The notes under the pieces were generated by a model. That model searched no databases. It saw only the letters and a program-made list of their open reading frames with translations, and had not been told where the DNA came from. 64,000 nt of DNA from Phycisphaeraceae bacterium (lineage in GTDB: Bacteria; Planctomycetota; Phycisphaerae; Phycisphaerales; Phycisphaeraceae), in the NCBI GenBank assembly GCA_028277745.1, contig JANQFR010000068.1, positions 110,676 through 174,675 of the forward strand. The letters run 5' to 3'. A program made the position numbers and the translations under genes. Position 1 is the first letter of the stretch. Each line of letters starts with the position of its first letter. This document shows positions 29,976 through 63,973 of the stretch, piece by piece.

Positions 29976-30022
29976 GATTCAAACAGATAGCCTTGATGTA
30001 TTGAGAAGCAAGCCTGACGGAA

Positions 30023-30461: not shown

Positions 30462-30652
30462 GGCTGGATCACGTCAATGGGGCTCAGGCGTCGCGATGCA
30501 CGGCGTCGGGGCGTCTGTCCCGGCTCGGACCAGCCCGCCGGGCTGACCATCCGCGCCCGGCCGTTCGAGATGTTGCCGCAGATGATCCGCTGTGAGCATG
30601 AACGCGAATTCTACTGAAAATAAAACCACAAGATTGGGCAGCCCACCAGAGA

Positions 30653-35317: not shown

Positions 35318-35466
35318 GTTTGGCTCCTGTTTTCAAACGTGATGAACGCGGGGTCGACCCCGCCGCGGAACAGACGCAATCGGGCCGATCTTGTGACGGT
35401 TTTTAGACCCGCGGGCCTCCAGGCATCGTATCCTGTATGAATCAAACCGTACTGAGGAGCCTGACC

Positions 35467-36933
35467 ATGATCCAGCCTCGCCTCATCGTCATGACGCTTC
35501 TGTTGATCGGCCTGGGTTGGCCGGCGGCCGCCGACGAGCTGCGGCTGAAAGACGGCCGCGTGTTCCAGGGGGTGGTCGCCGAAGACGCCGACAACCCCGA
35601 GGCCCCGGTGACCATCGACGCGATGGTCAGCGGGATCCGCGCCACCCTCGCGTTTCCGCGCGACCAGGTGGACCAGATCGCGCGAGACCCGGTGCCGGAG
35701 GGCTTCTTCGACGCCCCCGAAGCGATCTCGCTGCCGCCCGAAGCCATGTTGAGCGGCGACCCGTACATGGTGATCCCGATCGAGGGCAACATCGGCCGGG
35801 AGGTCGATCCGCTGGCGGTCAGGGCGGCGCTGGACCACGCGGTCCAGCGGGGCATCGGTCACGTGGTGTTCACAGTCAACAGCAACGGCGGCGACCCGGA
35901 GGCGACGCGCGAGCTGGCCCGGGTGCTGGAGGATTATGACGACGCGCTGCAATACCACGCCATCGTCACCAAGGCCGAGGGGCTGGCGCTGACGCTGCCG
36001 GTGTGGGCGGACACGCTGCACATGATCCCCGGCTCGACGCTGGGCGGGCTGAACCTGGACGACCTGGACCTCCCGAACATCGACGCCGGCGTGGTCGCCG
36101 CCCGCGCCGCGGCGGTGGCGCAGTCCAAGGGACGCGACGGCTACCCGGTCATGGCCATGATCCTCCCCGAAGAGCGGATCGCCGCGTGGGAGGATGACGA
36201 CGGGACGATGGTCGTCACCGACGGCGTGCCTGAGGACGTGCCGGCCGACCGGGTCGTGTTCGAGGACCTCCCCAACACCCGCCTGGTCCTGTCGGCGAAA
36301 GACGCGGCCGCCATCGGCTTCGCCGAGCCCTTTTCCGGGTCGCCTCAGGACTTGGGCCGGGCGTTGGGCCTCAGCGATTGGAACGCGGCCTCCGATTACG
36401 GCAACCAGGTGATGCAACGCGCCGCCCACCTCAGCGAGCAGCAGGAGCGCCGCGAAGAGGCCCTCGCCATCAAGCGCGAGAACGACATCGCCAACAACCT
36501 CCGCCGGCACGACGAGCTGATCAGCTACGTGCTGTCCAACATACGTGAGTACGAGCAGGTCCGCCCCAGCGAAGGGCAGTACGCCACCTACATCACACGC
36601 GACCGCTTCCGCAATAACCGCACGGGGCGCTACCGCTACGTCATCGCCCGCGACACCAACCGGTTCACCAAGGATTCCCGCAACGAGTGGCGGTACCGCA
36701 CCGACCGCGCGATCAACGCGCTGCAGCGCGTCCGCAGAGGGCTGTCCAGCCTGAACCGGCTCGACACCCAGGCCAGGACGCTGGGGATCGTGCGCGACAC
36801 CAACACGCTGCTCAGCGAAGCCCTGACCGACGCGGAAGGCCGAGCGGTGCGGGTGACGGTCAACCAGCTTTCAAGCTGGGCTCAGCGTGAGATCAACTCG
36901 CTGCGGGCGGGGCGCAATCGGACGGGGAATTGA
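35467..36933 (+). CDS. Secreted hypothetical protein with NfeD/ClpP-like (crotonase-fold) N-terminal domain
   Basis: SD gaggag 8 nt before ATG 35467; signal peptide MIQPRLIVMTLLLIGLGWPAAA; MVIPIEGNIGREVDPLAVRAALDHAVQRGIGHVVFTVNSNGGDP resembles the NfeD/S49 ClpP-class domain; Arg-rich C-terminal half. Confidence 0.45.
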   Translation: MIQPRLIVMTLLLIGLGWPAAADELRLKDGRVFQGVVAEDADNPEAPVTIDAMVSGIRATLAFPRDQVDQIARDPVPEGFFDAPEAISLPPEAMLSGDPYMVIPIEGNIGREVDPLAVRAALDHAVQRGIGHVVFTVNSNGGDPEATRELARVLEDYDDALQYHAIVTKAEGLALTLPVWADTLHMIPGSTLGGLNLDDLDLPNIDAGVVAARAAAVAQSKGRDGYPVMAMILPEERIAAWEDDDGTMVVTDGVPEDVPADRVVFEDLPNTRLVLSAKDAAAIGFAEPFSGSPQDLGRALGLSDWNAASDYGNQVMQRAAHLSEQQERREEALAIKRENDIANNLRRHDELISYVLSNIREYEQVRPSEGQYATYITRDRFRNNRTGRYRYVIARDTNRFTKDSRNEWRYRTDRAINALQRVRRGLSSLNRLDTQARTLGIVRDTNTLLSEALTDAEGRAVRVTVNQLSSWAQREINSLRAGRNRTGN

Positions 36934-37204
36934 GCCCGGGTTCGAGAGCGTCATTCATTACGACTGGCAGTACCCGCGCCTTCTCAGGTAGGCCGGCGGG
37001 TCGCTCGCCGACCTCGAACCGCACGTGATCGAACCGGCCGACTCGCCGCGGCTTAGGGCCGCGAGGATTTTCGCCATCCGTGACCTCCAGCAACAGGAAA
37101 GCCACATCAAGACACACTGCCGTAAAATGCGCCAGCAACTCTGATATAGAAGTGAGATACGCCGTGGAGGCACGTCAATTGACAAGGTTTTTGCAAGGTA
37201 AAAC

Positions 37205-38338
37205 ATGATTTTATGTGTCTTTATCATTATCACAATGGCTGCGGTAAGTGACGTGTCGAATCCAAATAAAGAAGTGGCTCAAACTATGTTAGTTGTCGCA
37301 AAGGCATGGCAGGCAAACCAGAATCATCTCCAGACATGGACAGGCGATGTTGATCTTTCGCATTCTCTTAGTGATCAAGGCGGGGCAATTGTTGATAACA
37401 AAGGAAAAATTGATTTTGCTTATGATTCCATGACGAGGAATTATTACTCCAAATGGAATCGGGGGGAGGCAAAAGATCAGGCGACTTTCAGATATGCTGA
37501 AATGCGCAAGGATGGAAAATTTTTTACTTATTCAGATTTAAGCGGGAGCAGGGTGTTAACGATTGATGTGGAAAAGCAAAGTAACTTTAATCGACACGAT
37601 CGGCGTTTTGTGCCCCAGGAATTGTTTTCTCCAAATGGATTAGATGTCTACGGATTATTTACGAAGCTATCGACGCAACCTGATGTAGAGCAATTTTCAT
37701 CAGTGGAAAAGATCGGTGAGATTGTAACCGTGACGATCGAGGATGATGACGTTCTAAACATATATGAGTTTGACGTCGGGAAAGGAAATTTGATTTCGTA
37801 TAGAGGTATTTCAAAGGACAAAAGTGCCGATGAAAAATGGACATGGGAATATACGAATATTTCGGGTGTTTGGGTGCCAACGAAGATCATTCACTCGGTC
37901 ACTGCTGCAGGTTCGAGTGGGCCGGTAAAAATTGATCGAGTCACCACGATAGTCAAGCAGACAGTGAATCAGCCGCTGCCTCCGGATGCGTTTGCAATTG
38001 ATCATTTGGGCGTTAAGGCTGGCGACTTCGTTAAGGATCATATATTGAACTTTGTGTACGAATACTCGGGAGAGGATGCGATTGCGAAGGTCACAGACAT
38101 GCCGGAAGATCCATCATATTTTGTGGCGGACGCAGAGATGCCTGTTGACATAGAGGCAAATTCTGATCTTTCTGAGCCGTCGCCTTCTGTTAGATCTAAC
38201 GAGAGAACCGCAAATAGCAATGGTGAATATCGCTACGCTGTAGCAGGTGCGGTAAGCGTATTAGTTGTGATGCTTATTATCTTCGCCTTGCGGTTTTATC
38301 GAAGCCGTAGCGGATGGCCAAAGAATCCTAAGATATGA
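37205..38338 (+). CDS. Hypothetical membrane-anchored protein encoded in a 42% GC islet
   Basis: N-terminal anchor MILCVFIIITMAAV, C-terminal TM AVAGAVSVLVVMLIIFAL; codon usage is AT-rich (Lys/Asn/Ile-rich), unlike any neighbour. Confidence 0.55.
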   Translation: MILCVFIIITMAAVSDVSNPNKEVAQTMLVVAKAWQANQNHLQTWTGDVDLSHSLSDQGGAIVDNKGKIDFAYDSMTRNYYSKWNRGEAKDQATFRYAEMRKDGKFFTYSDLSGSRVLTIDVEKQSNFNRHDRRFVPQELFSPNGLDVYGLFTKLSTQPDVEQFSSVEKIGEIVTVTIEDDDVLNIYEFDVGKGNLISYRGISKDKSADEKWTWEYTNISGVWVPTKIIHSVTAAGSSGPVKIDRVTTIVKQTVNQPLPPDAFAIDHLGVKAGDFVKDHILNFVYEYSGEDAIAKVTDMPEDPSYFVADAEMPVDIEANSDLSEPSPSVRSNERTANSNGEYRYAVAGAVSVLVVMLIIFALRFYRSRSGWPKNPKI

Positions 38339-50735: not shown

Positions 50736-51164
50736 ATGACATACCACGACAACGCCACCGCCTCGCTTCAAGACGCCCCCGAGGCGGACAAGACGTATTT
50801 CACCCTTGAACACGCCAACCGCGCTTTGCCTTACGTTCGGCGCATTGTGGATGACATTATGGCCGTCTATCGCGACGTCGTTGCCCTGCGCCGTCGGATG
50901 GAAACCGATGAGTCGGATGGGAGCGGCGTCGAGCGGCAATACCAAGAAGCGATCGATCGATTGGGCGAACTGGTCGATGAGGTTCAGGCCGTCGGCGTCG
51001 AGCTCAAAGATTTTGAACGCGGATTGGTCGATTTCCCCGCGCTGGCGGATGACCGGGAGGTCATGCTTTGCTGGCGAGCTGGGGAAGAGCACGTGAGCCA
51101 CTGGCACGAGGTCGACGCCGGGTACGCCGGCCGTCAACCGACTGACTCGCTTGGGCGGGCGTAA
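50736..51164 (+). CDS. Conserved hypothetical protein (DUF2203-like)
   Basis: SD gggagg before the ATG; 142-aa acidic protein; FTLEHANRALPYVRRIV...LKDFERGLVDFP resembles DUF2203. Confidence 0.45.
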   Translation: MTYHDNATASLQDAPEADKTYFTLEHANRALPYVRRIVDDIMAVYRDVVALRRRMETDESDGSGVERQYQEAIDRLGELVDEVQAVGVELKDFERGLVDFPALADDREVMLCWRAGEEHVSHWHEVDAGYAGRQPTDSLGRA

Positions 51165-51272: not shown

Positions 51273-53117
51273 CTACTGATGCGGTGTTGATTCGAGTTCC
51301 CGCAGTTCACGGCGCCACGCTTCGCGCTGCGCTTCGTCGATGCCGGGCTCCGGCAATAGAGACCGTCTGGTGCAGTTCACCAGGGCCTGAAGCGTCTGAT
51401 ATCGCCGTGCGGCGCCGATGTCTGCGGGCAGCAGGTCGTCGACGATCGTTTTGAGTTCATCTTCCCGCAAAGGTCTGTTTTTGATGGTTGATGCGGCTCG
51501 CAGCCGCGAACGCAACGCGGCGTATCCCGCAGCGGAATATCCTTCTGTCATCACACCGATCCGTTCCACCGCCTCGGGGCTCAACGTGTCGGTGGATTGA
51601 CCGATCGCCCATTTCACAAACTCGAGCCGATCCTCGCCTTCCGGGTCCAACACCGGGATGATCAGGTCGCCGACACGTCCCGGGCGGCGGATATCGGGGC
51701 TCAGCCGCTCGATGCGTGCGGTCATCAGCAGCCAGACCACCTTCCCCCGTAGTTTCGGGTCGCTCATCATCTGCTGCACCTTGCCGGTCAGCCGTCGTTC
51801 CGTCGCGTGGGCGTCCGGCCCAACCCCGCCGAACTGCGTGTCCGCCTCGTCGACAAACAGGATCACTTTGTCGAGCGCTTCAAGCATGCGTCGTAGTCGT
51901 TCAAAGATGACATCGGTCTGGCCGAAATACTGGCTGCGGATGTTTTTCAGCACCAGCACGGGCAGTCCGAGCGATCCGGCGACGGCTTCGAAGATGAACG
52001 TTTTCCCGGCGCCGATCGGCCCCGCGACGGCGGCGCCCGGCAACGCGGATTCATCTTCCGCTTTGACCCGTGGAATGAATTCGTCTTGGAGAAAGCGTTT
52101 CAGCCCGCTGTAGCCCACGACATCCTGCAACGTGTGTGCCGGTTTCTTGAACTCCACCACACCGGGCCCGACCTGGGACGTGATGAAAGTCTCGACATGC
52201 TCGATGGCGGCGTCGGCCGTGACCGCTTTGTTTGTATGCGCCGCCTCCATCAGCACCTGGCGTAACGCATGGATCGATAGGCCCGCGGTGGATTTGGCGA
52301 GTTCTTCGATACTGCATGAAAGCGATGGTTGGGGGCGTTGATGACGCAGGAACCAGTCGACGTAATGCCGGCGGGTCGCCGCATCAGGCGATGGCGCTTC
52401 CACGGTTAACACCTGCGGCAGCCGCGTAATCCGAGGATGCACCTGGCTCTCGGATTCGGCCAGAAGCACCACGCTGTCTTCGCCGTTGCAGAAAGCCGGA
52501 TCGCTGAACCAGTCCTGCATCACCGACACCCGGTGGCGGTCCGCTACCGGCAGCCGCGTGATCTCTCCGTCTCCCGCGGGGACGAGCATGTCGGCCGCTT
52601 CGATAAAAATCATCAGCCGAAAGCGTTTGGCGCTGCGGGAGCAGAGCGTCACCTGACGAAGAAACTCCAGCGCGACCGTGGGCCGGCCGATCGCGTCACG
52701 CAACGACTCATCGAAGCTGTTCTCGGCCTCGGCTTTCCGGCTCGCCGCGGCTTGATCGCTTAAGCCTCTCAGGACCAGGGTGTCAAGTTCTACGCCCGTT
52801 TTCCAAGCCACCCAGGCATGACGGACCTTTTGGGCGTCTCCGTCGTCAATAAACCGTATGGGGCCATTGAGTTCATAGACAATCCGGACAAGGTTGTCGA
52901 CGTTGCAGCGGGCGATCAAATAGTGCAGCAAGGGCTGATAGGAGCCGTCAAAGGGATCGGCCCCGCCGTCGTCATCTTCGAGTTGTGAGGTCCGGTTGGG
53001 CGTGTAGAAGAGGTCGTGCACGTCGCCGGCAACAAGCAGACTCCTTGATTGGCCGCTGTTGAATACGCGGGCCAATCGTCTGAAGAAAGCGTAGCTTGGG
53101 GCCGGGGGAGTGCTCAT
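51273..53117 (-). CDS. Classic-clade AAA ATPase with a 330-aa unknown N-terminal domain
   Basis: Walker A GPIGAGKT, Walker B ILFVDEAD, second region of homology LLMTARIERLSPDIRRPGRVGDLIIPVLDPE; start 3 nt after the PspA-like stop. Confidence 0.8.
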   Translation of the reverse strand: MSTPPAPSYAFFRRLARVFNSGQSRSLLVAGDVHDLFYTPNRTSQLEDDDGGADPFDGSYQPLLHYLIARCNVDNLVRIVYELNGPIRFIDDGDAQKVRHAWVAWKTGVELDTLVLRGLSDQAAASRKAEAENSFDESLRDAIGRPTVALEFLRQVTLCSRSAKRFRLMIFIEAADMLVPAGDGEITRLPVADRHRVSVMQDWFSDPAFCNGEDSVVLLAESESQVHPRITRLPQVLTVEAPSPDAATRRHYVDWFLRHQRPQPSLSCSIEELAKSTAGLSIHALRQVLMEAAHTNKAVTADAAIEHVETFITSQVGPGVVEFKKPAHTLQDVVGYSGLKRFLQDEFIPRVKAEDESALPGAAVAGPIGAGKTFIFEAVAGSLGLPVLVLKNIRSQYFGQTDVIFERLRRMLEALDKVILFVDEADTQFGGVGPDAHATERRLTGKVQQMMSDPKLRGKVVWLLMTARIERLSPDIRRPGRVGDLIIPVLDPEGEDRLEFVKWAIGQSTDTLSPEAVERIGVMTEGYSAAGYAALRSRLRAASTIKNRPLREDELKTIVDDLLPADIGAARRYQTLQALVNCTRRSLLPEPGIDEAQREAWRRELRELESTPHQ

Positions 53118-53120
53118 GCA

Positions 53121-53945
53121 TCATTCCGGCAGTTTCGCGCCGCCCCCATCAGGGGAATCGCCGTTTTCTCGATCCGATTCCCCCGCCAGTCCTATCAACC
53201 GATCAAACTCATCGTTCGCGAGGCTCTTCTGTGCGTAGTCCAGGAACTCCGCTTCCTGCGCCTTGGTGTCAGAGCCGGCCAGTTCTTTGCTGACGCGCGC
53301 CTTGGCCTTCATCTCATCACGCAATTGGCGCATATCCGCCAATTCGCGGGATGTACGGTCCTGGCTGATGCCCGCCAACATGTCGTTGATCTCTTGCTCC
53401 TCCTTGGCGGTGATCATCTCCGCGACCGCGGTCGCCTGTTCTTCTCGCAATGTCTCAATGTCCTGAAGCATCTGCTGGAGTTGAATCTTGTGGCCCTTGA
53501 TGGATTCGTCCATCTCGGTGACTTCCTGCTCAAGTTCTACGATTCGATTGCCTTTCTCTTCGATCTTGGCGGTGAATCCATTGAAAGCCACCAGGCATTT
53601 CTGGTAATCTTCATTGGATTTGATCGTCTCCATGCCAACCCCCGACGTCTTGAGTTCGCCAATGACGGTCCGGGCTTTCGCCGCCGCCCCTTCTTTCAAT
53701 TGTTCGAGCCGGTTGACTTCATCGGTCTCCGCCTTGATTTTGCCCATCTTGTTTTCGTGTTGAACGATGAGCCTGGCGATGGCGTCTTTGAATTGCTGGA
53801 TGCTCTTGCGTTTTTCCTCAATAACGTTGTCGTAGGTTGCGTTGACGACGTGCGGGTTTGTGCTGAGCGTACGTCTGGCGGCGTCGATCCGGCCGGTGAC
53901 CATGTAGCCGAGAGCTCTGAAATATCGACTTACAGCTTTAAACAT
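53121..53945 (-). CDS. PspA/IM30 family protein (ESCRT-III superfamily, phage-shock/Vipp1-like)
   Basis: PspA-like N-terminal amphipathic segment MFKAVSRYFRALGYMVTGRIDAARRTLSTNP, then about 230 aa of heptad-repeat coiled coil with an acidic tail; start at ATG 53945. Confidence 0.6.
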   Translation of the reverse strand: MFKAVSRYFRALGYMVTGRIDAARRTLSTNPHVVNATYDNVIEEKRKSIQQFKDAIARLIVQHENKMGKIKAETDEVNRLEQLKEGAAAKARTVIGELKTSGVGMETIKSNEDYQKCLVAFNGFTAKIEEKGNRIVELEQEVTEMDESIKGHKIQLQQMLQDIETLREEQATAVAEMITAKEEQEINDMLAGISQDRTSRELADMRQLRDEMKAKARVSKELAGSDTKAQEAEFLDYAQKSLANDEFDRLIGLAGESDRENGDSPDGGGAKLPE

Positions 53946-53989: not shown

Positions 53990-56900
53990 TCACTCTTCGG
54001 GCGATCGGCTTCGTTCAAGCTTGGCGATCATCGTGTCATACTTGGTGACCATATCCTGGAGAGTTGCGCCAAGCTGTTTGAGCTGCCCGTCTTGATCAGC
54101 GGTGATCCGTGTCAGGGGTTCAAGCCAGCCTTTCATGAGGTTGAACTGTTCTTTCATGACATAAAGAAATGTTGACGGCACTTTATTGACGACCCGGATC
54201 TCATGCGGCGGGCTTTCTTGACCGGATTTGGGCGGTGGGACGGGGCGGCTTGCCGCCGCGGCGCGGATCGCATCGATTGTTTCTTCATCGAGTTTCGCCT
54301 CGACCACGCGTGAGGCGTCAATCGCTTCCCCGATCGATGCGAGGGCGGTGTTGAGCCTTGTGACCTGTTCCATGAGCGGAACGAGTTCTGTCTGATCTTT
54401 AGCGGATAGTCCTGTGCTGATCGCCTGATGGATCTCGTCAAGCCCCTCGTTGAACGACGCAAGTTGTACAAGCACTTGCGCCGTTCGGTCGTCGCCGTCG
54501 ATCCCGGCCAAATGGTTGTTTCGGCGAAATGTCTTTTTGATTTCTTCCCATCGGCCTTGTTCCTGATCGTTGATGATGCCGATCAATTCCTTGAATTTGA
54601 GGAGGTTCGCCTCCGCGCCGGTGGTCAGCGTTTGGGCGTCTTGTTCGTAGCTGGACAGGATCAGGGTCTGGAGCTCATCATCGTTCATGACGGACGATAC
54701 TTTCTCAGCAATCCGATTCATATTGCGATACGAACCCTGTAACCCAAAAGCCGGTTCAGTTCGATATTTGGTTTCCATGCCCGCCGAACGAATGTATTCC
54801 TGATTAACCGCCAGAATTACGTCACGCACACGCATGAGCTTGCGCATCACACCGACCATTTCATTGATTTCGTCAGATGAATAATTGCCTTCAAAATCGA
54901 TGTCATCGCGAGAGTTTGTTTCGGCGATTTTGATGATGCTATAGACGTCTTCCTGACTTCGGCTGGCGAGTTGGTTCAATGCAGGGTTGCTGGTCAGCGC
55001 ATTTTCCAAGTAGCTCATCACAAATGCGTCACGGTGGTCGCCGATGATATCGCCGAGGTTGTAGGTGTCGGCCCGATTGGCAAGCATATCGGGGATGTGA
55101 AATTTCTCTCCGGATTCGGTGTATGGGTTGCCCGCCATGACGACGGCGACTTTGCGGCCGCGGAAATCATACGTTCTCGGCCTGCCTTTATAGACCCCTT
55201 CGATCTTCCGTTGCGCATCGCAGAGGCTGATGAATTTCTGAAGAAATTCACTGCTGCAATGCTGGATGTCATCAACGTAGATCATAACGTTGTCGCCCAT
55301 CTCGAAAGCTAGATTGAGTTTGTTTAACTCATCCCGGGCGGCGGCATTGGAGGCTTCCTGAGGGTCGAGCGATGTCACGGAGTGTCCGATCGCGGGGCCG
55401 TTGATTTTCATGAAAATCACCCCCAGTCGATTGGCGATGTACTCCATGAGCGTGGTTTTTCCATACCCCGGCGGCGAGATGAGCAGCAGCATGCCCATCC
55501 GGTCGGTGCGGGTGTTTTCGCCTGCAGAACCCATCTGTTTGGCGAGGTTGTCGCCGATGAGCGGGAGAAAAACCTTGTCGATCAGCTTGTTTCGGACAAA
55601 CGAGGTCAGCACGCGAGGCTTGAACTCGTCGAGCCTCATCTCCTCACGAGCCTGCTCGGCGAGCATGCGTTTCCTGTGGGTGTATTGTTCAAAAGCCGGC
55701 GCCTGTAGCGTTACAAACCGATCAAGTCGATTTGTGAACTCGTTGTAATTTAATTCCAAAACACCGTCGATAATGCGTTGGTGTGAACCGGTCAGATTCT
55801 CAATGGTTCGGGCGACGCTGGCCTGTACAATGCGGGAATGATCGAACGGTTTATCGAGGAGCATGAGCGCGGCTTCACTGAGATAGCCTTCATGCTTGGA
55901 CGGATCGATTTCATTGGTTTCAAGAAAAGCACGGAGCCAATCACAAGCAAGTAAAAACTGCGTAACCGGTTGATCAGCGACGTTATCAAGTGAACGTTGG
56001 AACTTCTGAACGGCGCGGAATGTTTTTAGCCGACCCAGGAACGCATCGTACAGCGCGGCGGCTTCCGGACTGGCGACGAAACGGTTGTTTCCTGTTGTCA
56101 ATTCATGAAACAGATAGACCCCAGCGTCTTTGGTTTTTGCAGGATTAAACAGTTGGTGAGTGTCATTGAAAGCGGTGATATCATGGCGGATATCGTCGAT
56201 GTAACGGCCTTGTTCGTCATTCTCAGGAAAATAACCTGAGATCGCGCCGTAGCCGCATAGCCTCAACGTCATCAAGCGCTTGTCATCGTCTTCAGGACGG
56301 GTCCGCCAATAGAGGCCGGCCATGGCTCGTGATTCACTGGGGTACCGCAGCAGGCCGATACTTCCGTCTAACTCCATTAAGGCTTTGAGAATTTTGGAGC
56401 TGTCGTGGTCGTGAACGCCTTTAATATACCCTTCACTGTAGCGCGAACTCATGAACTTCTGAGTGTGCGCAAGCAGTGCGTTGTCATCAAGATCCGCCAA
56501 ATGGACAGCGTTGCTGTCGATTGACATCAGGTAGGCGAGATATTCGCTTCGATAGACATCAGGATTCTCAGATACGATCTCTTGTGTCCAGATGCTGTGA
56601 TCAGAGTTGAGCGCCTCATCTTCGATGGGCTCGAAGAACCGTGTCCCGCTGATGTGAAGATTCATTCTGTCATCACGGAGCACCATCGTGAGGTCCACCG
56701 CTTGCGTATTAACGCTAAATACATGTTTGCCGAAGCGGATGGTGTTAGGTCCATCGACCATCAACTCCTGACGGTCTTTGAGTTGCCGTACGGCATCCTC
56801 CCGGATGGTTTTGATCTGCGAGTGAATATCATCGACTTTGACGGTGTCTTCAAGATCGGAGAGCTCATCAATAAGGTCCCGGAGTTTTTCAACCATCAAG

Positions 56901-59296
56901 TCTGACGCGAAATAGGAATTGATGGCATTGACCGTATCCAGGCCGTCGACCCGGCTTTTAATGCCGCGTAAAATCCTGTCTGCGGCGGCGGCTAACGCGG
57001 TAGATCGTTTGTTGCGCTTTTCGGTGATCTGTAGTTTACGGTTTTCGAAAGCGTTGTAGATCTCATCACGTTTTTCGGTTAACTGCAGCACGAAGTCATC
57101 AAACTCCGCGAATCGTCCTTCGACCTCTTCGATCTGAACCATCATCTTGGTCAGGTATTGGTCTGTTTTTTCCGCGGTGTCGCAGAGGTCAAGGTAATTG
57201 ATGACGGATTGATTGAGCAGTTTGAGTTGGCTGTTGAACTCGGCGATGCCCTCAGAGCGGCCGAGGTCTTGGTTTTTGTTGCGGAGGCGGCTGCGCGCGG
57301 CATTCAACTCGCTGAAAATGATCGAGACGGAGTCGAGGATCGCAGTGCGCTGCGTAGCGTCATCGATTTTGAGATTGCTGACGATGTCAATCAGCATCTC
57401 CAGTTCGTTCGATGTCGAAGTAATCTGAGTATCGAGCTCGCTTGCGTCCGCCGCTTTCGTAAGGCTGTCGATCCTGTCCGCCTGTTGCTTAACCGCGTGC
57501 TCATAAGGCGACAGCGCGTCGGGCTGCAGCAGGAAATCTACGGTTCTACGACTCAAGCTTTCCGTCTGATCCTGAACGGAAACCTCCAGAGCATTGACCT
57601 GGGTTTCGTCTATGTAACGCAAGTCACGTAAACTGATAATCTTTCCCCGAATTTCACGGAGTGATGCCAGCGACTCCACAAAGGAATGAATGCTCTCGTA
57701 AATCCGGCTTGCATTGCGATTTATTAATTCGCTGGCGGCGGCTGACGTTTCTTTGAGGTGCGCCTCTGTCGCACGCCGGACGCGCGTGACTTTTTCAAAC
57801 TCCCCCACCGCAGCCAGGCCGGCGTCCTTGATCTGGGTGAGTGTTTCCGCCAGATTGAAACACTCGGAGTGTCCGAGCCAGAAAAAAGAATCCAGCAGGT
57901 CGCTGGTCGCTTTTACAATGTCAACATACAGATCGGCATAGCGTTCTTCGCGTCGGATCAGATTGAGTATGCCGACGCATTCCGCCATACCGCGGACGAT
58001 CTCTTTGTTTCCGATTTTAGATAGATAGGTATCAGACTGTTTTTCTGGGACATAATTCGGGCCGACGTAAGGCGTTTGCCAGATCTGGATGGCGTGGTGT
58101 TTCTGTGGCTCTTCACCGGCTTTGAAGAAGATCAATTCGCCATTGGAAAAGAAACTGTAGCCATTGCAAAGGGTTGGCGTGTCGATCTGCTGCTCGATCA
58201 GGTTGTAGGAAAGCAGCACGTAGACGCCATGCGTCCGGTTATAGAAAACATACAGAAAATCTTCGCCGTTCGGCGCCGCGATGCGGCGCTCAAACACCAT
58301 AGATTCGGTCAGGTCCTGAAGAGTCGGGAAGGTTTGAGTGCGTCCGTCAGCAAGGTAATAGCCATCAGCGAAGATCAGGCCCTGGTCGTCGGGAAGCAGG
58401 ATGCATGCGTGTTCGATAGCATCTAATCGAACGACATTCTGAAGTTTTTCATTAAAGATGAAATAACGATAGTTTGATTCCTGGTAAGGCCTGATGCGTA
58501 GCAGGATAAGATGGCCATGCGCGATGTATGTAATGTCCGCGTCATCTAAGGTCTGATCCGGATCATCGACGGGCTCGGCATAGATCCCGGCGCCGGCGGC
58601 GGTGTTGTTTTCAACCTTGATCGTTAGATCGCCGCCTACGGTTTCGACGAAAACACGGTCCTGGATCGATGCATGGGGATGTTGACCGGTGACGAAATCA
58701 TCACGGGTGACGCGGACCCAATCGAGTTCGTGCTGATCGGGGTAGCGGACTTCGTGGTCAGATCGGTTGTCGATGTAGGTTAGGCGGCCATCTTTTGATA
58801 ACCACTTGAAAGCCTTAAAGTCATCGGGGTGATTGCCGACATGAAATTTCATGTAGATATGCGGCCCGCTGCGGAAGAATTTAGCGAAGGCCGTATTTTT
58901 ATAGAATCGGTAAAGGTCGCGAAAATCTTTTTTGAACCGTTCGTCACCGATGAGTTCGAGGGGCTCTTCATGGAAGGTTGAGCCGTCGAACCGGTAAACG
59001 GAAAAGACATCGGCGAGTTCGATCTCGGTGCGGAGCCCGAACTGGACGTTATATCCAAAGAGGAACCGGTCGCCGATCGGGACCATATCCCGGGGGACGC
59101 AGTTGTTGCTGGTGGTGACGCGTTCCGCACCGACCAGCTTGGTTTCGATCGATCCGAAGACGCTCATACGCGCTTCGTTAAGCTGATCGAGTCGAGACCT
59201 CAGTTCGCGGCCATGATCGGCGAGCCGTTTCTGGATGATCTCATAAGCGCCCTGTTCAAGCTGGGCTTCGGGTTGTTTTGCAGCTTGGTCTGGCAT
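53990..59296 (-). CDS. Giant (1768 aa) uncharacterized protein: N-terminal beta-rich domain, long central coiled coil, MoxR/AAA_5-like P-loop ATPase domain and helical C-terminal region
   Basis: Single uninterrupted ORF at about 51% GC; Walker A LLISPPGYGKTTL, Walker B-like VMIYVDDIQH, AAA_5-like RGRKVAVVMAGNPYTE; coiled-coil segment about residues 520-900. Confidence 0.75.
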   Translation of the reverse strand: MPDQAAKQPEAQLEQGAYEIIQKRLADHGRELRSRLDQLNEARMSVFGSIETKLVGAERVTTSNNCVPRDMVPIGDRFLFGYNVQFGLRTEIELADVFSVYRFDGSTFHEEPLELIGDERFKKDFRDLYRFYKNTAFAKFFRSGPHIYMKFHVGNHPDDFKAFKWLSKDGRLTYIDNRSDHEVRYPDQHELDWVRVTRDDFVTGQHPHASIQDRVFVETVGGDLTIKVENNTAAGAGIYAEPVDDPDQTLDDADITYIAHGHLILLRIRPYQESNYRYFIFNEKLQNVVRLDAIEHACILLPDDQGLIFADGYYLADGRTQTFPTLQDLTESMVFERRIAAPNGEDFLYVFYNRTHGVYVLLSYNLIEQQIDTPTLCNGYSFFSNGELIFFKAGEEPQKHHAIQIWQTPYVGPNYVPEKQSDTYLSKIGNKEIVRGMAECVGILNLIRREERYADLYVDIVKATSDLLDSFFWLGHSECFNLAETLTQIKDAGLAAVGEFEKVTRVRRATEAHLKETSAAASELINRNASRIYESIHSFVESLASLREIRGKIISLRDLRYIDETQVNALEVSVQDQTESLSRRTVDFLLQPDALSPYEHAVKQQADRIDSLTKAADASELDTQITSTSNELEMLIDIVSNLKIDDATQRTAILDSVSIIFSELNAARSRLRNKNQDLGRSEGIAEFNSQLKLLNQSVINYLDLCDTAEKTDQYLTKMMVQIEEVEGRFAEFDDFVLQLTEKRDEIYNAFENRKLQITEKRNKRSTALAAAADRILRGIKSRVDGLDTVNAINSYFASDLMVEKLRDLIDELSDLEDTVKVDDIHSQIKTIREDAVRQLKDRQELMVDGPNTIRFGKHVFSVNTQAVDLTMVLRDDRMNLHISGTRFFEPIEDEALNSDHSIWTQEIVSENPDVYRSEYLAYLMSIDSNAVHLADLDDNALLAHTQKFMSSRYSEGYIKGVHDHDSSKILKALMELDGSIGLLRYPSESRAMAGLYWRTRPEDDDKRLMTLRLCGYGAISGYFPENDEQGRYIDDIRHDITAFNDTHQLFNPAKTKDAGVYLFHELTTGNNRFVASPEAAALYDAFLGRLKTFRAVQKFQRSLDNVADQPVTQFLLACDWLRAFLETNEIDPSKHEGYLSEAALMLLDKPFDHSRIVQASVARTIENLTGSHQRIIDGVLELNYNEFTNRLDRFVTLQAPAFEQYTHRKRMLAEQAREEMRLDEFKPRVLTSFVRNKLIDKVFLPLIGDNLAKQMGSAGENTRTDRMGMLLLISPPGYGKTTLMEYIANRLGVIFMKINGPAIGHSVTSLDPQEASNAAARDELNKLNLAFEMGDNVMIYVDDIQHCSSEFLQKFISLCDAQRKIEGVYKGRPRTYDFRGRKVAVVMAGNPYTESGEKFHIPDMLANRADTYNLGDIIGDHRDAFVMSYLENALTSNPALNQLASRSQEDVYSIIKIAETNSRDDIDFEGNYSSDEINEMVGVMRKLMRVRDVILAVNQEYIRSAGMETKYRTEPAFGLQGSYRNMNRIAEKVSSVMNDDELQTLILSSYEQDAQTLTTGAEANLLKFKELIGIINDQEQGRWEEIKKTFRRNNHLAGIDGDDRTAQVLVQLASFNEGLDEIHQAISTGLSAKDQTELVPLMEQVTRLNTALASIGEAIDASRVVEAKLDEETIDAIRAAAASRPVPPPKSGQESPPHEIRVVNKVPSTFLYVMKEQFNLMKGWLEPLTRITADQDGQLKQLGATLQDMVTKYDTMIAKLERSRSPEE

Positions 59297-59339: not shown

Positions 59340-61442
59340 TCACTTGGCGCCGTCGAGAAGGCCGAGTTTGCCGACCTTCTTGTCCGCCAGGCCAGCGGAT
59401 TTGGCGGCGCCGAGCAGGTTCTGCAATTCGGATTTAAGCATGTCGTCGCTGGAAAGACTGATCATCCGCGTGACCAGCGCCGCGACGGTCAGGTTCTTGG
59501 CGTCTTCCGCGTCGATGCCGAACTGCCCGACGAACTGTCGGACCTTACGCTGGAAGTACTCGGGCGAACCATTGAAGAAAGTCGACTTGATGTCGGAGAG
59601 CACCTCGGAGTTGCCGACCATGCGGTCGACTTGTTTGCCGGAGGTGATGGAGTTGATGATGCGGTCGAAGAACTGGCCGTCGCCGCCGACGATATCGATG
59701 TTCGCCTGCTTGAGGGCCTCGGCCAGCACCGCGGCCTGCTCGGCCGCGATCTTCGCCTTGATCTCGATCTCCGCCAGCTCCACCGCTTTTTCTTTGTCGA
59801 GATGGAGCTTGAACTCTTCGTGCTCCTTGCCCACGCCGTCGAGCTTCTTCATGGCTTCGGCCTTGGCGGCGACGCCCTCGGCCTCGGCGGAGTAGTGCTG
59901 GTTCAACGCGCCCGCTTCGGCTTCGCCCCTCTTGGCGATCACATCGGCCTCGGCTTCGCCCTTCCTGGCGGTGACTTCCGCCTCGGCCGTGCCGTAGTTG
60001 CGCACGGCGCCGGCCTTGGCGTCCATCACTTCCGCCTCGGCCAAACCGGAGGCGGCGGTTTCGGCCTGGACCGCCTCGGCGAGCTTCATCTTGCCCAGGG
60101 CTTCCTTCTCCGCGGCCTGGCGCTGAGCCTCGGCCTCGATGAGGACCTCGTCGGCCTGGAACTTGGCGGCGGTCTTGCCCGCCTCGGCCGCCTTGACCTC
60201 CTTGATCAACGCTTCCTCGGCCAACGCCTCGGCGGCGGTGACCTGCACACCCTTTGCACGCGTCGCGGCCGCCAGCTCTTCGGTATCCTTGATGCGCTCC
60301 TGCTCCTCCACCACCGCCCGCTCGACGATGACGCGTTCGCGGATCACGTCCTGGATCTTCTTGCGCTCCACCTCGAGGGCTTTTTCCTTCTCGATCCGGG
60401 CCAGTTCGACCACGCGTTCGCGCTCGGTGGCTTCGAGATCACGTTCGCGCTGGACCCGCTCCTGCTCCACCGCGTGAGTGCGTAGCTTGGACTGTTCGGC
60501 CACAATAACCTGGCGGAGCTTGTTCTCTTCCTGGACACCCAGCTCTTCTTCGGTGGAGATGCGGGCGCGCTCTGATTTAAGTTTTTCCTCTTCGCGAGCT
60601 TTGTCAGCTTGGGCCTGCTCACGTACGGTGATCTCGGCGATCTCGCGCTTCTGCCGCTGCTCGGCTTCGGCCTGCTGTTTCTCCAATTCAAGAATCGCTT
60701 CACGGGCCTCGACGTCCTGCTTGGTGATCGTCTTCTCTTTTTCGCGATTGATGTCGTTGGCGAAGACCTGTTCCCTGGCGGTCAGGTCGGTGATCTTCTT
60801 GATGCCCTCGGCGTCGAGGATGTTGCTGGGGTCAAGCTTGGTGACGTCAGTCTGTTCGAGGTAATCGATGGCGGCGTCGTCCAGGACGTAACCGTTCAGG
60901 TCGGTGCCAAGATGGGCGAGGATTTCCTCTTTAAACTTTTCCCGTTCGGTGTATAGATCGGTGAAGTCAAATTTTTTACCAACGGTTTTGAGGGCTTCGG
61001 AGAACTTGGCGTCAAAGAGTTCGATCAGAGCAGCTTGATCGGATGCTCGCTTGCAACCAATGGACTGAGCGACTTGGAGGACATCTTTCGCCGAATTATT
61101 GACCCGGACAAAGAATGCAACTTTGATATCAGCACGAACATTATCTTTGCAGATCAATCCTTCAGATCCATGTCGATAAATTTCAATCCGTTTGACAGAG
61201 ATGTCCATGATCTCTTCACGGTGGAAAACGGGCCAGACTAAAGTGCCGCTGAAACTAACTTTTACTCCCGAACTGCCCCGCAAAGTGACCCCGGTTCTGA
61301 CCAGCGCCGTTCCCTGCTCAACTTTCCGGAAGCATTTCACAAAAGTAATGACAAAGACAAAAATGATCAGAAGGCCAAACAGGGCGGCTAACGCCCCCAG
61401 GATGCCTAGACTGTTAAGCAATGCGAGTGACGGCATGTACAT
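59340..61442 (-). CDS. Flotillin family protein (SPFH/band-7 domain plus extended Ala/Glu-rich coiled coil, YqiK-like)
   Basis: N-terminal TM helix, SPFH domain, about 350 aa of EA-repeat coiled coil (flotillin domain), C-terminal oligomerization region; 700 aa. Confidence 0.85.
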   Translation of the reverse strand: MYMPSLALLNSLGILGALAALFGLLIIFVFVITFVKCFRKVEQGTALVRTGVTLRGSSGVKVSFSGTLVWPVFHREEIMDISVKRIEIYRHGSEGLICKDNVRADIKVAFFVRVNNSAKDVLQVAQSIGCKRASDQAALIELFDAKFSEALKTVGKKFDFTDLYTEREKFKEEILAHLGTDLNGYVLDDAAIDYLEQTDVTKLDPSNILDAEGIKKITDLTAREQVFANDINREKEKTITKQDVEAREAILELEKQQAEAEQRQKREIAEITVREQAQADKAREEEKLKSERARISTEEELGVQEENKLRQVIVAEQSKLRTHAVEQERVQRERDLEATERERVVELARIEKEKALEVERKKIQDVIRERVIVERAVVEEQERIKDTEELAAATRAKGVQVTAAEALAEEALIKEVKAAEAGKTAAKFQADEVLIEAEAQRQAAEKEALGKMKLAEAVQAETAASGLAEAEVMDAKAGAVRNYGTAEAEVTARKGEAEADVIAKRGEAEAGALNQHYSAEAEGVAAKAEAMKKLDGVGKEHEEFKLHLDKEKAVELAEIEIKAKIAAEQAAVLAEALKQANIDIVGGDGQFFDRIINSITSGKQVDRMVGNSEVLSDIKSTFFNGSPEYFQRKVRQFVGQFGIDAEDAKNLTVAALVTRMISLSSDDMLKSELQNLLGAAKSAGLADKKVGKLGLLDGAK

Positions 61443-61460: not shown

Positions 61461-62120
61461 TCAAAAACCCCTGATGTAATAGACGTTCCGCGTATCGTCC
61501 TCGGATACGATGACGGCTTCGTCGCCTTTTTTTAAGGTTGATTTGGAATCGCTGGTCCGAGCGTTGAGCAGCAGCGGGGCGCCGTCGGTGTCGACTTCGA
61601 CCTGACCGCGGCGATGGTCGACCGTCAGAGAAACCACGCGGCACCGAGAGCCCACGATATGGATCATTGCCTCGGCTTCTTCCTGGTCCTTGATCTTCTT
61701 GTACAAGATCTTGGCCGGATGCGTGAGGATTTTGGTCACAAAAACAGCTCCGACGATCATGAGCGGCAGGGCGATGAGTTGCGTTAGCACCGCGAGGCTG
61801 CCCGCGATCAGGTAAGTCCCGACGCTGATCGTCCACAGCGTCAGGACAAACACGCTCAGTAGGATCGTCACCGGCACGTAGCCGATGTTGAGGAACCGCA
61901 TCATCGAAACCCCGACCGACGCGTCGCCGATCGACGCGTCGATATCGACGTCGGCGTCTACATCCACGTCCACGTCGGTGTCCACGTCAAAATCGAAGTC
62001 GAGGGACTCGAGGTCGAGGGCGCCGAGGATGACGAACAGCCAATAGATCACGCACAGGCCGAGGATGACGGTCAGCGTCAGGTTGACGGGTGCAAGGCAG
62101 GCTTCGATGAACTCGGTCAT
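61461..62120 (-). CDS. YqiJ/NfeD-like membrane protein with C-terminal OB-fold
   Basis: Two to three TM helices, an acidic DxD repeat loop (DFDFDVDTDVDVDVDADVDID), C-terminal beta-barrel-like VGSRCRVVSLTVDHRRGQVEVDTDGAPLLLNARTSDSKSTLKKGDEAVIVSEDDTRNVYYI; ATG at 62120, with a possible GTG at 62144. Confidence 0.6.
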   Translation of the reverse strand: MTEFIEACLAPVNLTLTVILGLCVIYWLFVILGALDLESLDFDFDVDTDVDVDVDADVDIDASIGDASVGVSMMRFLNIGYVPVTILLSVFVLTLWTISVGTYLIAGSLAVLTQLIALPLMIVGAVFVTKILTHPAKILYKKIKDQEEAEAMIHIVGSRCRVVSLTVDHRRGQVEVDTDGAPLLLNARTSDSKSTLKKGDEAVIVSEDDTRNVYYIRGF

Positions 62121-62257
62121 GGCGTTTGGCCCCCGATGGGTCACGCCAAGGATAGCGGCTTCCGAGGTGGCGTGGGTGGGAATCGGGCCCGGCCTTTCAA
62201 CGAAATTGGGACACCGAACAATCTGGTAACAGTCGGGGGAGTCGGTAGACTGTGGCG

Positions 62258-63973
62258 ATGCTGAGCGAACTGCACATCTCCAATCTCGCGGTGATCGAAG
62301 ACGTGAAGATCGAATTGGCCGGGGGGCTGAATGTGTTCACGGGGCAGACCGGAGCGGGCAAGAGCCTGGTGCTGGGGGCGTTCGAGGTCCTGCTGGGGCT
62401 GCGCAGTGCGGGCGACATGCTCCGGCCGGGCGCGGAGGAGGGGCGGGTGTCGGGGATGTTTGAGGTCGTGGGCGAGCGGAACGTCGTGGCGTTGAGCGCG
62501 ATCGCCGACCAGTCGGTGCAGCCGGGCGAACCGCTGCTGGTGACGCGGAAGCTGTTCGCGTCGGGCCGGTCGAGCTTCTCGATCAACGGCCAGCCGGCCA
62601 CGTCGGGCATGGTCAAGCGGCTGGGGCAGGCGCTGGTGGACATCCATGGCCAGCACGACCACCAGTACCTCCTGCGGCCGTCCAACCAGCTGGAGATCCT
62701 CGACGACTTTGCGGGCTGCTCCGAACCGCGGCGAGCGTTCGCCCAGGCGCATCACGACCTGCGCGAACGCCGGGAGCGTCGGGAGACGCTGATGGCGTCA
62801 CGGACGCTGCGGACCCAGCAGTTGGATTTGTACGTCTTTCAGGCCGAGGAGATCGATTCGGCGGGCCTGACGGAGGGTGAGTTCGCCGAGTTGCAGGCCC
62901 GGCACGCGGTCCTGTCGAATGTGACGAAAATCCAGGCCCAGGCGAGCGGGGTGCAGGCGGCGTTATACGAGACGGAAGGCTCGGTCGTGGCCCGGCTTGA
63001 GATGATGACGCATGTCCTGCAGGGCCTGACCGAGTTGGATGAGACGCTGAGCCCGCTTGCCGAGCAGGTGCGCGGGGCGACGCTCGGGCTCCAGGAAGCC
63101 GCGTTTGAGCTGACGCGCTATCTCGACCGGCTCGAGGCGGATCCGGGCGAGCTGGCGGAGGTGGAAGACCGGCTGAACCTGTTGAACCGCCTCGTGCAGA
63201 AATACGGCGACGCCACGCCCGGCGAAGACCCCGTCGCTTCCGTGCTGGCCTACCGCGAACAGATCGGCGCCGAGATCGCGTCGTTGCGCGAGCAGGATCA
63301 CGACCTGTCCCAGATCGACCGGGAGATCGCCGAGCTCGAAGCGCGCCTGGCGGAGATCGGCACGTCGCTGACCACGGCCCGGGCCAAGGCGGCGAAAAAG
63401 CTCAAGCCGTTGGTTGAGGCGCAGCTCCAGGAGCTGGGGATGGCGGACGCCAAGTTCACGTTTGACATCCAGCCCAGCGAAGACCCCGGCGCCTCGGGGA
63501 TGGACACGGTCGAAATCGTCGTCCAGACCAACCCGGGCCAGGCGTTCCGGCCCCTGCGTCAGATCGCCAGCGGCGGCGAGCTGTCGCGGGTGATGCTCGC
63601 GATCAAGTCGATCCTGGCGGGCCCCGACCGGATCAGCGTGCTGGTGTTCGACGAGGTCGACGCCAACATCGGGGGCCGACTGGGCAGCGTCATCGGCCGG
63701 AAGCTGAGGGAGCTGGCGTGTGCGCCGCGGACGGGCGGGCGCCAGGTGTTGTGTATCACGCACCTGCCGCAGATCGCGGCGTTCGGGGACCGTCACCTGC
63801 GGATCACCAAGCGGGTGGTCGGCCGGGGCGGGCGGAAGCAGGCCCGGACCGAGGTGACGCGGCTGGAAGGCAAAGCCCGGATCGAAGAATTGGCGGAGAT
63901 GATGGCGGGCAAGCAGGTCACCGGCGTCAGCCGCAAGCAGGCGGAGGAGCTGATCGCCGCGGCGACGGCTTGA
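62258..63973 (+). CDS. recN: DNA repair protein RecN
   Basis: MLSELHISNLAVIEDV...FTGQTGAGKSL Walker A, long coiled coil, C-terminal signature ASGGELSRVMLAIK and Walker B VLVFDEVDANIGG. Confidence 0.9.
   Translation: MLSELHISNLAVIEDVKIELAGGLNVFTGQTGAGKSLVLGAFEVLLGLRSAGDMLRPGAEEGRVSGMFEVVGERNVVALSAIADQSVQPGEPLLVTRKLFASGRSSFSINGQPATSGMVKRLGQALVDIHGQHDHQYLLRPSNQLEILDDFAGCSEPRRAFAQAHHDLRERRERRETLMASRTLRTQQLDLYVFQAEEIDSAGLTEGEFAELQARHAVLSNVTKIQAQASGVQAALYETEGSVVARLEMMTHVLQGLTELDETLSPLAEQVRGATLGLQEAAFELTRYLDRLEADPGELAEVEDRLNLLNRLVQKYGDATPGEDPVASVLAYREQIGAEIASLREQDHDLSQIDREIAELEARLAEIGTSLTTARAKAAKKLKPLVEAQLQELGMADAKFTFDIQPSEDPGASGMDTVEIVVQTNPGQAFRPLRQIASGGELSRVMLAIKSILAGPDRISVLVFDEVDANIGGRLGSVIGRKLRELACAPRTGGRQVLCITHLPQIAAFGDRHLRITKRVVGRGGRKQARTEVTRLEGKARIEELAEMMAGKQVTGVSRKQAEELIAAATA

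What the first reader, a model, noticed from the sequence alone, without database searches (positions are those of the whole stretch)
53990..59296. 1768-aa uninterrupted ORF: coiled-coil giant with a single MoxR/AAA_5-like ATPase module
This is the largest gene in the window and its composition (about 51% GC) differs from the host. The architecture is an N-terminal beta-rich region, then a coiled coil of roughly 400 aa, then a P-loop domain whose Walker B is followed by Gln/His (VDDIQH) and which has an AAA_5-like sensor region, then a helical C-terminal domain of about 350 aa. I cannot assign it to a characterised family. Its position between flotillin and PspA suggests a mechanochemical partner of those membrane scaffolds.
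Basis: partly seen in the sequence, partly recalled or inferred. Interest (0 to 1): 0.7.

Follow-up and report, generated by a model that had tools for sequence, protein, structure and literature searches.

The report
Flotillin-linked giant propeller–rod–AAA+ ATPase
The 1768-residue gene is real and belongs to a widespread, strongly conserved but untested family of giant ATPases that almost always sits just after a flotillin membrane-scaffold gene, so it is probably an ATP-driven partner of that scaffold; the family and its operon were already described computationally in 2024.

The parts
53990..59296 (-). Giant ATPase gene, 1768 aa, soluble (no predicted transmembrane segment)
   Evidence: ORF list and translation; identical protein on two other contigs; hydropathy scan finds no TM segment, maximum 19-residue Kyte-Doolittle mean 1.05
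57881..59206 (-). aa 31-472: N-terminal helix plus ~7-bladed beta-propeller (Pfam DUF3686)
   Evidence: PF12458 E=1e-186 covering profile positions 1-448 of 448; AlphaFold model with helix 15-47 and about 28 strands between aa 53 and 407 at pLDDT ~85-93; Foldseek PDB hits are generic propellers at probability ~1
56762..57853 (-). aa 482-845: helical rod of repeated long-helix bundles, spectrin-repeat-like; contains Pfam DUF7902 (aa 593-676)
55637..56749 (-). aa 850-1220: small beta unit, all-alpha domain (about aa 916-1147), then a long connecting helix; no match to any known fold or family
54497..55609 (-). aa 1230-1600: AAA+ ATPase module (alpha/beta core about 1260-1420 plus helical lid and extension), MoxR-like
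55451..55477 (-). Walker A, aa 1274-1282, SPPGYGKTT
   Evidence: S1274 through T1281 invariant across phyla; T1282 invariant among the closer relatives
55259..55285 (-). Walker B, aa 1338-1346, MIYVDDIQH (Asp-Asp instead of Asp-Glu)
   Evidence: Y1340, D1342, D1343, I1344, Q1345 and H1346 invariant across phyla
53993..54409 (-). aa 1630-1768: clade-specific C-terminal tail (low-confidence Pro-rich linker, then a long terminal helix)
   Evidence: Relatives outside Planctomycetota align only up to about aa 1620-1630; 6-9% identity across phyla; pLDDT 40-65 followed by helix 1708-1762
59340..61442 (-). Flotillin/SPFH-like scaffold gene, 700 aa, one N-terminal hydrophobic segment (aa 3-42)
   Evidence: 47% identical to a Streptomyces 'flotillin family protein' and 39% to the pQBR103 'SPFH domain-containing protein', each directly upstream of its giant homolog; weak NCBIfam FloT hit; no Pfam hit; hydropathy
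61461..62120 (-). YqiJ/NfeD-like membrane protein, 219 aa as called by the gene caller (ORF list extends to 62144), about 3 TM segments
   Evidence: Pfam YqiJ_N E=1.6e-4, 22.2 bits, just under the 23-bit cutoff; unmarked YqiJ_N hit in the ortholog of L085; gene call; hydropathy; present upstream in 60 of 66 testable loci
53121..53945 (-). Divergent PspA/IM30-like (ESCRT-III superfamily) protein, 274 aa
   Evidence: PF04012 E=0.0065, below threshold, in this protein, but 13 of 33 homologs match with best E=4e-6; the family profile hits Vipp1/PspA chains at E~0.05 in consistent register; some homologs are named PspA/IM30 by NCBI or JGI
51273..53117 (-). Classical-clade AAA ATPase, 614 aa (active AAA domain aa 361-556; the N-terminal half looks like a degenerate AAA domain)
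   Evidence: Pfam AAA 7e-15; NCBIfam CDC48 subfamily 1.2e-15; PDB sequence hits Afg2/VAT/p97 at E~1e-22 and Vps4 at 1e-9. The N-terminal degeneracy is my reading of the sequence and agrees with the description in PMC11237479

Best explanation
The ORF encodes a soluble ~200-kDa member of a widespread family of giant ATPases. From N to C terminus it has a beta-propeller, a spectrin-repeat-like helical rod, an unmatched alpha domain and one MoxR-like AAA+ module. It is the third gene of a conserved operon: YqiJ/NfeD-like membrane protein, flotillin (SPFH scaffold), giant ATPase. Proposed mechanism, inferred and not shown: the AAA+ modules form a ring, probably a hexamer as in other AAA+ proteins. 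The rods hold the propellers tens of nanometres away from the ring. The propellers bind the cytoplasmic face of the flotillin/NfeD assembly or proteins held by it. ATP hydrolysis then drives assembly, disassembly or remodelling of that scaffold during membrane stress. In this genome's clade the triad is followed by an independent PspA-like plus Cdc48-like AAA pair (an ESCRT-III/Vps4-like module). The five genes would then couple a flotillin scaffold to PspA-type membrane repair. Shown here: the ORF, family membership, domain folds, motif conservation and the gene linkage. Inferred: oligomeric state, the physical interaction with flotillin, and the direction of remodelling.
Confidence: 0.55

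Rival explanations
1. The giant acts mainly on PspA/ESCRT-III polymers, as a Vps4-like disassembly or recycling ATPase, and flotillin serves only as the membrane platform.
For: PspA genes join the operon in three independent layouts. In the Bacteroidota and pQBR103 layouts no other AAA+ gene accompanies PspA, so the giant is the only ATPase present. Three more PspA_IM30 genes appear among the immediate flanking genes.
Against: Most of the 80 scanned loci have no PspA within 10 kb, while flotillin is nearly always present. In the window's clade the PspA-like gene brings its own Cdc48-like AAA partner, and that pair also occurs alone elsewhere. The AAA+ fold is closest to MoxR proteins and not to Vps4.
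Confidence: 0.15
2. The triad is an anti-phage or other conflict system, with the giant as an NTPase sensor or effector at the membrane.
For: Distribution is patchy but spans many phyla at unusually high identity, which suggests horizontal transfer. GC3 in this genome is atypical for the host. Copies occur on large plasmids. Small selfish or defence-type genes (AbiEii, DUF559 endonuclease, IS200 transposase, DMP19) are inserted between flotillin and the giant in some loci. A divergent HTH plus S24 peptidase repressor, of the CI/LexA type, flanks the Bacteroidota form.
Against: No significant PADLOC match for any of the operon proteins. Of 134 immediately flanking genes only a few scattered ones match defence models, and the rest are varied housekeeping genes. 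No nuclease, TIR, pore-forming or other effector domain was detected. Identity of 70-80% across phyla in the motor is unlike fast-evolving defence genes. No homolog was found in 50,697 phage records.
Confidence: 0.12
3. It is a MoxR-type maturation chaperone that inserts a cofactor into, or activates, a membrane enzyme complex, with flotillin only concentrating the client.
For: The closest structures are CbbQ (Rubisco activase) and NorQ (nitric oxide reductase maturation), and AAA_5 is above threshold.
Against: No VWA-domain partner and no conserved client enzyme gene is linked. The architecture, about 1300 extra residues of propeller and rod, is unlike any characterised MoxR protein. Apart from the membrane-scaffold triad and PspA, no neighbouring gene family recurs across lineages.
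Confidence: 0.1
4. It is a DNA repair ATPase, as the database name says.
For: The Pfam and NCBI names; a recN-like gene lies next to the operon in this window; an S24-type (LexA-like) regulator flanks the Bacteroidota form.
Against: RecN is adjacent only in this genome (1 of 88 loci held). No DNA-binding, nuclease or SMC/ABC-type head domain was detected. RuvB similarity is limited to about 45 residues around the P-loop. The conserved partners are membrane proteins. No paper supporting the name was found.
Confidence: 0.03

Closest known systems
The 'beta-propeller + coiled-coil + AAA-ATPase' protein of the CesT/Tir-PspA-YqiJ/YuaF-flotillin operon, described by comparative genomics in PMC11237479 (mSystems 2024); Pfam DUF3686 + DUF7902; NCBI name 'DNA repair ATPase'
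   Same: Same family. There are full-length Pfam matches and relatives that are collinear over 99-100% of the length. The domain order is the same, and so is the position after the YqiJ-like and flotillin genes.
   Different: Here PspA is not upstream with CesT/Tir. A divergent PspA-like gene and a Cdc48-like AAA gene follow the giant instead. This copy also carries a ~140-aa clade-specific C-terminal tail. The paper reports no structure-based assignment of the rod or the AAA+ class.
MoxR-class AAA+ ATPases (CbbQ, NorQ, RavA)
HflK/C-FtsH and other pairings of SPFH scaffolds with AAA+ machines (own knowledge; papers cited within PMC13086221 and PMC10936438)
   Same: An SPFH-family membrane scaffold with an NfeD-type partner is functionally tied to an AAA+ ATPase.
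   Different: FtsH is a membrane-anchored classical AAA protease enclosed by the cage. The giant is soluble, has no protease domain, and is far too large as a hexamer to fit inside such a cage.
ESCRT-III/Vps4 and PspA membrane repair systems
   Same: The genes following the giant are a PspA-like protein and a classical-clade AAA ATPase. This pairing was noted for bacteria in PMC11237479 and recurs as a stand-alone module.
   Different: The giant itself is neither ESCRT-III-like nor Vps4-like. The PspA-like protein scores below the Pfam threshold (16.5 against 33.9 bits).
Spectrin/plakin repeat rods
   Different: There is no sequence similarity (no Pfam Spectrin hit). The rmsd is 10-15 A across repeats. 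This is resemblance of fold only, not membership.

Membership tests
DUF3686/DUF7902 giant ATPase family (NCBI 'DNA repair ATPase') | Full-length match to PF12458 above the gathering score | tested here: met
   621 bits against a cutoff of 25; profile positions 1-448 of 448; aa 31-472
DUF3686/DUF7902 giant ATPase family (NCBI 'DNA repair ATPase') | PF25472 (DUF7902) within the helical region | tested here: met
   88.7 bits against a cutoff of 26; aa 593-676
DUF3686/DUF7902 giant ATPase family (NCBI 'DNA repair ATPase') | End-to-end collinearity with family members, including the C-terminal AAA+ module | tested here: met
   The 120 best relatives cover 93-100% of the query (nearly all 99-100%) at 54-60% identity; 253 residues are invariant across 13 phyla
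DUF3686/DUF7902 giant ATPase family (NCBI 'DNA repair ATPase') | Gene position directly after YqiJ/NfeD-like and flotillin genes | tested here: met
   Same order and strand in the window and in 67 of 71 (flotillin) and 60 of 66 (YqiJ) testable loci
MoxR-class AAA+ (Pfam AAA_5) | AAA_5 profile match above the gathering score | tested here: met
   23.3 bits against 22, which is marginal; aa 1270-1394 on profile positions 2-126 of 139
MoxR-class AAA+ (Pfam AAA_5) | ATPase fold closest to solved MoxR proteins | tested here: met
MoxR-class AAA+ (Pfam AAA_5) | Beta-hairpin insert before sensor 1 | tested here: inconclusive
   The model has two strands (aa 1365-1369 and 1372-1376) between the helix after Walker B and the sensor-1 strand. 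They were not superposed residue by residue on a MoxR structure.
MoxR-class AAA+ (Pfam AAA_5) | Linked VWA-domain partner gene | tested here: not met
   No VWA family among recurrent neighbours or immediate flanking genes
MoxR-class AAA+ (Pfam AAA_5) | Compact stand-alone ATPase of about 250-500 aa | tested here: not met
   1768 aa, with about 1230 residues before the AAA+ module
Classical AAA clade (PF00004: Cdc48/Vps4/FtsH type) | Full AAA domain match, including the second region of homology | tested here: inconclusive
   PF00004 scores 29.8 bits but covers only profile positions 1-69 of 131. PDB sequence hits to p97/VAT cover only about 40 residues around Walker A.
SMC/RecN/SbcC-type DNA repair ATPases (implied by the database name) | ABC-type head split by a coiled coil; SMC_N or AAA_23 profile match | tested here: not met
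   No such Pfam or NCBIfam match. The P-loop and Walker B lie 65 residues apart in one contiguous AAA+ domain.
SMC/RecN/SbcC-type DNA repair ATPases (implied by the database name) | Conserved linkage to DNA repair genes | tested here: not met
   RecN is adjacent in this genome only, 1 of 88 loci held
Known anti-phage defence systems (PADLOC-DB 2.0) | Significant match of a component to a defence protein model | tested here: not met
   Best hits are IetA at 1.9e-4 and mad8 at 8e-4, generic P-loop similarity
Known anti-phage defence systems (PADLOC-DB 2.0) | Location in defence islands | tested here: not met
   Only scattered single matches among 134 flanking genes from 80 loci. No formal background comparison was made.
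PspA/IM30 (ESCRT-III superfamily), for the downstream 274-aa neighbour | PF04012 match above the gathering score | tested here: inconclusive
   16.5 bits against 33.9 for the window protein. 13 of 33 homologs match at E<0.01, best 4e-6. The family profile hits Vipp1/PspA chains at E~0.05.
Spectrin repeat | Sequence-profile match to spectrin repeats | tested here: not met

The most novel reading that the evidence does not exclude
The family is a dedicated flotillin-remodelling motor. A ring of MoxR-like AAA+ modules would carry six spectrin-like arms tipped with beta-propellers, and these would grip and reshape or take apart the flotillin/NfeD membrane cage, much as uncoating or disassembly ATPases act on eukaryotic coats. 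In this Phycisphaerae-like clade it would be coupled to a PspA/Cdc48-like pair, giving a five-gene membrane repair machine. That would be the first enzymatic partner assigned to bacterial flotillins.
Probability: 0.3. Interest if true: 0.7.

Novelty: new member of a known kind. Interest (0 to 1): 0.4.

Why it matters
What bacterial flotillins do, and how their assemblies are built and turned over, is still unclear. This family is a large, very strongly conserved ATPase that almost never separates from one flotillin subtype across at least seven phyla, and nobody appears to have tested it. If it does remodel the flotillin scaffold, it gives a direct experimental handle on flotillin function and on its link to PspA-type membrane repair. 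Copies exist in culturable organisms (Proteus mirabilis, Pseudomonas fluorescens SBW25 plasmid pQBR103, Streptomyces, Hymenobacter, Gimesia). The analysis also shows that the database name 'DNA repair ATPase' has no support and is probably misleading. For this particular window the finding is not new biology. It is one more member of a family whose operon was described in 2024.

Full report
OBSERVATION. The ORF list shows an ATG-initiated reading frame of 1768 codons at 53990..59296 on the minus strand, with no internal stop. The identical protein is in the public collection and is encoded on two independent assemblies of sequencing runs with the same neighbours. A frameshift or assembly artefact is therefore unlikely. 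The gene has GC 52.2% and GC3 62.1%. The window outside the operon has GC 65.8%, and the flanking RecN-like and AcrB-like genes have GC3 90% and 86%. All five genes of the cluster have lowered GC3 (62-79%), so the cluster as a whole looks compositionally foreign.

FAMILY. The protein can be assigned to a family. It matches Pfam DUF3686 (PF12458, described as 'ATPase involved in DNA repair') over the whole profile at E=1e-186 (aa 31-472). It matches DUF7902 (PF25472) at 3e-25 (aa 593-676). It also gives weaker AAA, RuvB_N, AAA_22 and AAA_5 hits around aa 1260-1394. A search of 5.8 billion proteins returned more than 4800 relatives. The best 120 cover 93-100% of the query, nearly all 99-100%, at 54-60% identity. 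Most are from Planctomycetota, and many carry the NCBI name 'DNA repair ATPase'. These span Planctomycetota, Bacteroidota, Verrucomicrobiota, Kiritimatiellota, Desulfobacterota, Omnitrophota and Clostridia, at 47-55% identity. A translated search of plasmid records added Streptomyces, Nonomuraea, Deinococcus, Pseudomonas (pQBR103), Proteus, Vibrio, Photobacterium and Halomonas at 35-41%. In a library clustered at 50% identity, the C-terminal half finds 453 clusters below 1e-30, and the full-length members are 1590-1930 aa. Conservation is unusually strong. In an alignment of 13 lineages from Streptomyces to Proteus to Clostridia, 253 of 1768 positions are invariant and the AAA+ region is 70-80% identical.

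ANATOMY. Two AlphaFold models built on 68-sequence alignments have mean pLDDT 84.5 (aa 1-880) and 81.6 (aa 861-1768). Six parts can be distinguished.
- aa 15-47 is a helix, and aa 53-407 holds about 28 strands arranged as roughly seven four-stranded blades. Foldseek against the PDB returns only beta-propellers of many unrelated families at probability near 1: Utp proteins, CyRPA, prolyl-oligopeptidase propellers, YncE, Kelch, Vps11 and the clathrin N-terminal domain. It is a generic propeller.
- aa 850-1220 is a small beta unit, a confidently modelled all-alpha domain and a long helix. No structural or profile match was found. It is the least conserved part of the core.
- aa 1630-1768 is a tail found only in the Planctomycetota subset.
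- The protein has no hydrophobic segment. The flotillin-like partner has one and the YqiJ-like partner about three.

CONTEXT. I called ORFs in the 80 loci from the genome scan and searched them with the window's proteins.
- The order YqiJ-like, flotillin-like, giant on one strand is found in nearly every locus. Flotillin is upstream in 67 of 71 loci with at least 2.5 kb of upstream DNA, and YqiJ in 60 of 66 with at least 4.5 kb.
- The same triad is present on Pseudomonas pQBR103 and in Proteus. The Streptomyces plasmid has flotillin followed by the giant, with an upstream gene that did not match YqiJ.
- The partner flotillin is itself well conserved, at 47% identity to Streptomyces and 39% to Pseudomonas.
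- Four giants lack an adjacent flotillin, and they show no common substitute partner.
- Downstream genes vary. Clustering all neighbours finds no further family shared by most loci.

PSPA LINKAGE. The window's downstream genes, a 274-aa PspA-like protein and a 614-aa AAA protein, are absent from all 80 scanned loci. They are present after the giant in the closest relatives (58-60% identity), although one of these has the PspA-like gene only.
- The 274-aa protein is a divergent PspA. Its own Pfam score is below threshold, but 13 of 33 homologs match PspA_IM30. The family profile hits Vipp1/PspA chains in consistent register at E about 0.05, and some homologs are named PspA by their sources.
- The 614-aa protein is a classical-clade AAA, matching Afg2/VAT/p97 at about 1e-22 and Vps4 at 1e-9.
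- This pair is an independent module. In other Planctomycetota genomes it stands alone, or sits in an operon with ABC transporter, OmpA and VWA genes, with no giant nearby.
- In 11-13 Bacteroidota loci the triad is instead preceded by CesT_Tir_1 (4e-54) and a clear PspA_IM30 (4.5e-41), with a divergently transcribed HTH plus Peptidase_S24 regulator.
- On pQBR103 a PspA/IM30, DUF2491, DUF350, DUF1190 and glutathionylspermidine-synthase operon runs directly into the triad.
- PspA therefore joins the triad repeatedly and independently, but most loci lack it.

PRIOR KNOWLEDGE. The comparative-genomics paper on the phage shock protein system (PMC11237479) describes this same operon. [quoted passage not shown] It notes that shorter operons without PspA are more widespread, and that PspA elsewhere pairs with a two-domain AAA+ protein whose N-terminal copy is inactive. 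Its Table S3 gives the Dokdonia example with the divergent HTH-protease gene. I found no experimental work on the giant.

MECHANISM. Shown here are an intact, strongly constrained ATPase site, a soluble protein with a binding-type domain at the far end of a long rod, and near-obligate gene linkage to a membrane scaffold pair. The rest is inferred. The AAA+ modules would form a ring. The propellers would contact the flotillin/NfeD assembly or its clients. ATP turnover would drive assembly, disassembly or reshaping of the scaffold, in cooperation with PspA-type repair where that module is present. From my own knowledge, the HflK/C-FtsH and prohibitin/m-AAA pairs are precedents for SPFH scaffolds working with AAA+ machines. 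I put 0.55 on this reading as a whole. Family identity is near certain, and the remodelling mechanism is roughly even odds.

RIVALS.
- A PspA-directed, Vps4-like role (0.15) fits the Bacteroidota and pQBR103 layouts, but it does not fit the many loci that lack PspA.
- A defence or conflict role (0.12) is suggested by the patchy, transfer-like distribution, plasmid copies, the foreign GC3, selfish-gene insertions between flotillin and the giant and the CI/LexA-type regulator. Against it, there are no PADLOC matches, no defence enrichment among 134 flanking genes, no effector domain, no phage copies and very slow sequence evolution.
- A MoxR-type maturation role (0.10) lacks a VWA partner and a conserved client.
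- The 'DNA repair' name (0.03) has no support. RecN is adjacent only in this genome, and the RuvB similarity is confined to the P-loop.

VERDICT. However, the protein is a member of a recognised, already described and still uncharacterised family, so this is a new member of a known kind. What this analysis adds:
- structure-based domain assignments (propeller, spectrin-like rod, MoxR-like motor);
- numbers for the flotillin linkage;
- evidence that the PspA-like/AAA pair is a separate module placed next to the triad in this clade;
- evidence against the defence and DNA-repair readings.
Interest is moderate at 0.4. The locus itself is not surprising, but the family is a good and tractable target for working out what bacterial flotillins do.

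Noticed in passing
L013:8612-9695, L037:8664-9380, L049:9500-9943, L050:9278-9907, L052:6718-7248: In several Bacteroidota, Verrucomicrobiota and Desulfobacterota loci the short gap between the flotillin gene and the giant holds unrelated small inserted genes: DUF559 (Vsr-like endonuclease), an IS200-type transposase, an AbiEii toxin, and DMP19 plus DUF3997. This intergenic site seems to tolerate or attract mobile genes.
   Followed up: partly
L014:3935-4756 (-), and equivalents in L018, L025, L034, L038, L041, L049, L050, L053, L067, L068: A divergently transcribed HTH_3 plus Peptidase_S24 (LexA/CI-like, self-cleaving repressor type) gene flanks the CesT-PspA-YqiJ-flotillin-giant operon in 11 Bacteroidota loci. 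This suggests the operon is induced by a damage or stress signal. The same gene appears as 'cHTH+Protease' in Table S3 of PMC11237479.
   Followed up: partly
L089:9001-11853 and L090:5314-14577: The divergent PspA-like gene and its ~610-630-aa AAA partner occur without any giant in other Planctomycetota genomes. In one case they stand alone, and in the other they sit in an operon with VWA, OmpA-domain, ABC transporter and permease genes.
   Followed up: partly
window 59340-61442 (-): The flotillin-like partner gets no Pfam Band_7 or Flotillin hit even at E<0.1, and only a weak NCBIfam FloT hit. Yet it is 39-47% identical to proteins that NCBI annotates as flotillin/SPFH in Streptomyces and Pseudomonas. 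It appears to be a distinct SPFH subtype that current Pfam profiles miss.
   Followed up: partly
window 30000-32000 and 36000-38000: Two other low-GC patches (0.56-0.57 against about 0.66) lie elsewhere in the window. Their ORFs (31111-32262, 37205-38338) match no Pfam or NCBIfam family. The ORF at 35437-36933 gives only a sub-threshold NfeD1b_N hit (25 against 40 bits). No Rfam family was found in 28-39 kb.
   Followed up: partly
window 62252-63973 (+) and 50736-51164 (+): The operon is bracketed by a recN-like gene (SMC_N/AAA_23) transcribed divergently and a DUF2203 gene transcribed convergently. Neither is conserved next to the operon in other lineages.
   Followed up: yes
L027:9917-15238 and L045:7340-9791: In the Rubripirellula locus the giant is split into three reading frames, and in one Verrucomicrobiae locus the flotillin is split. 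These may be pseudogenes or assembly errors in those metagenome-derived genomes.
   Followed up: no
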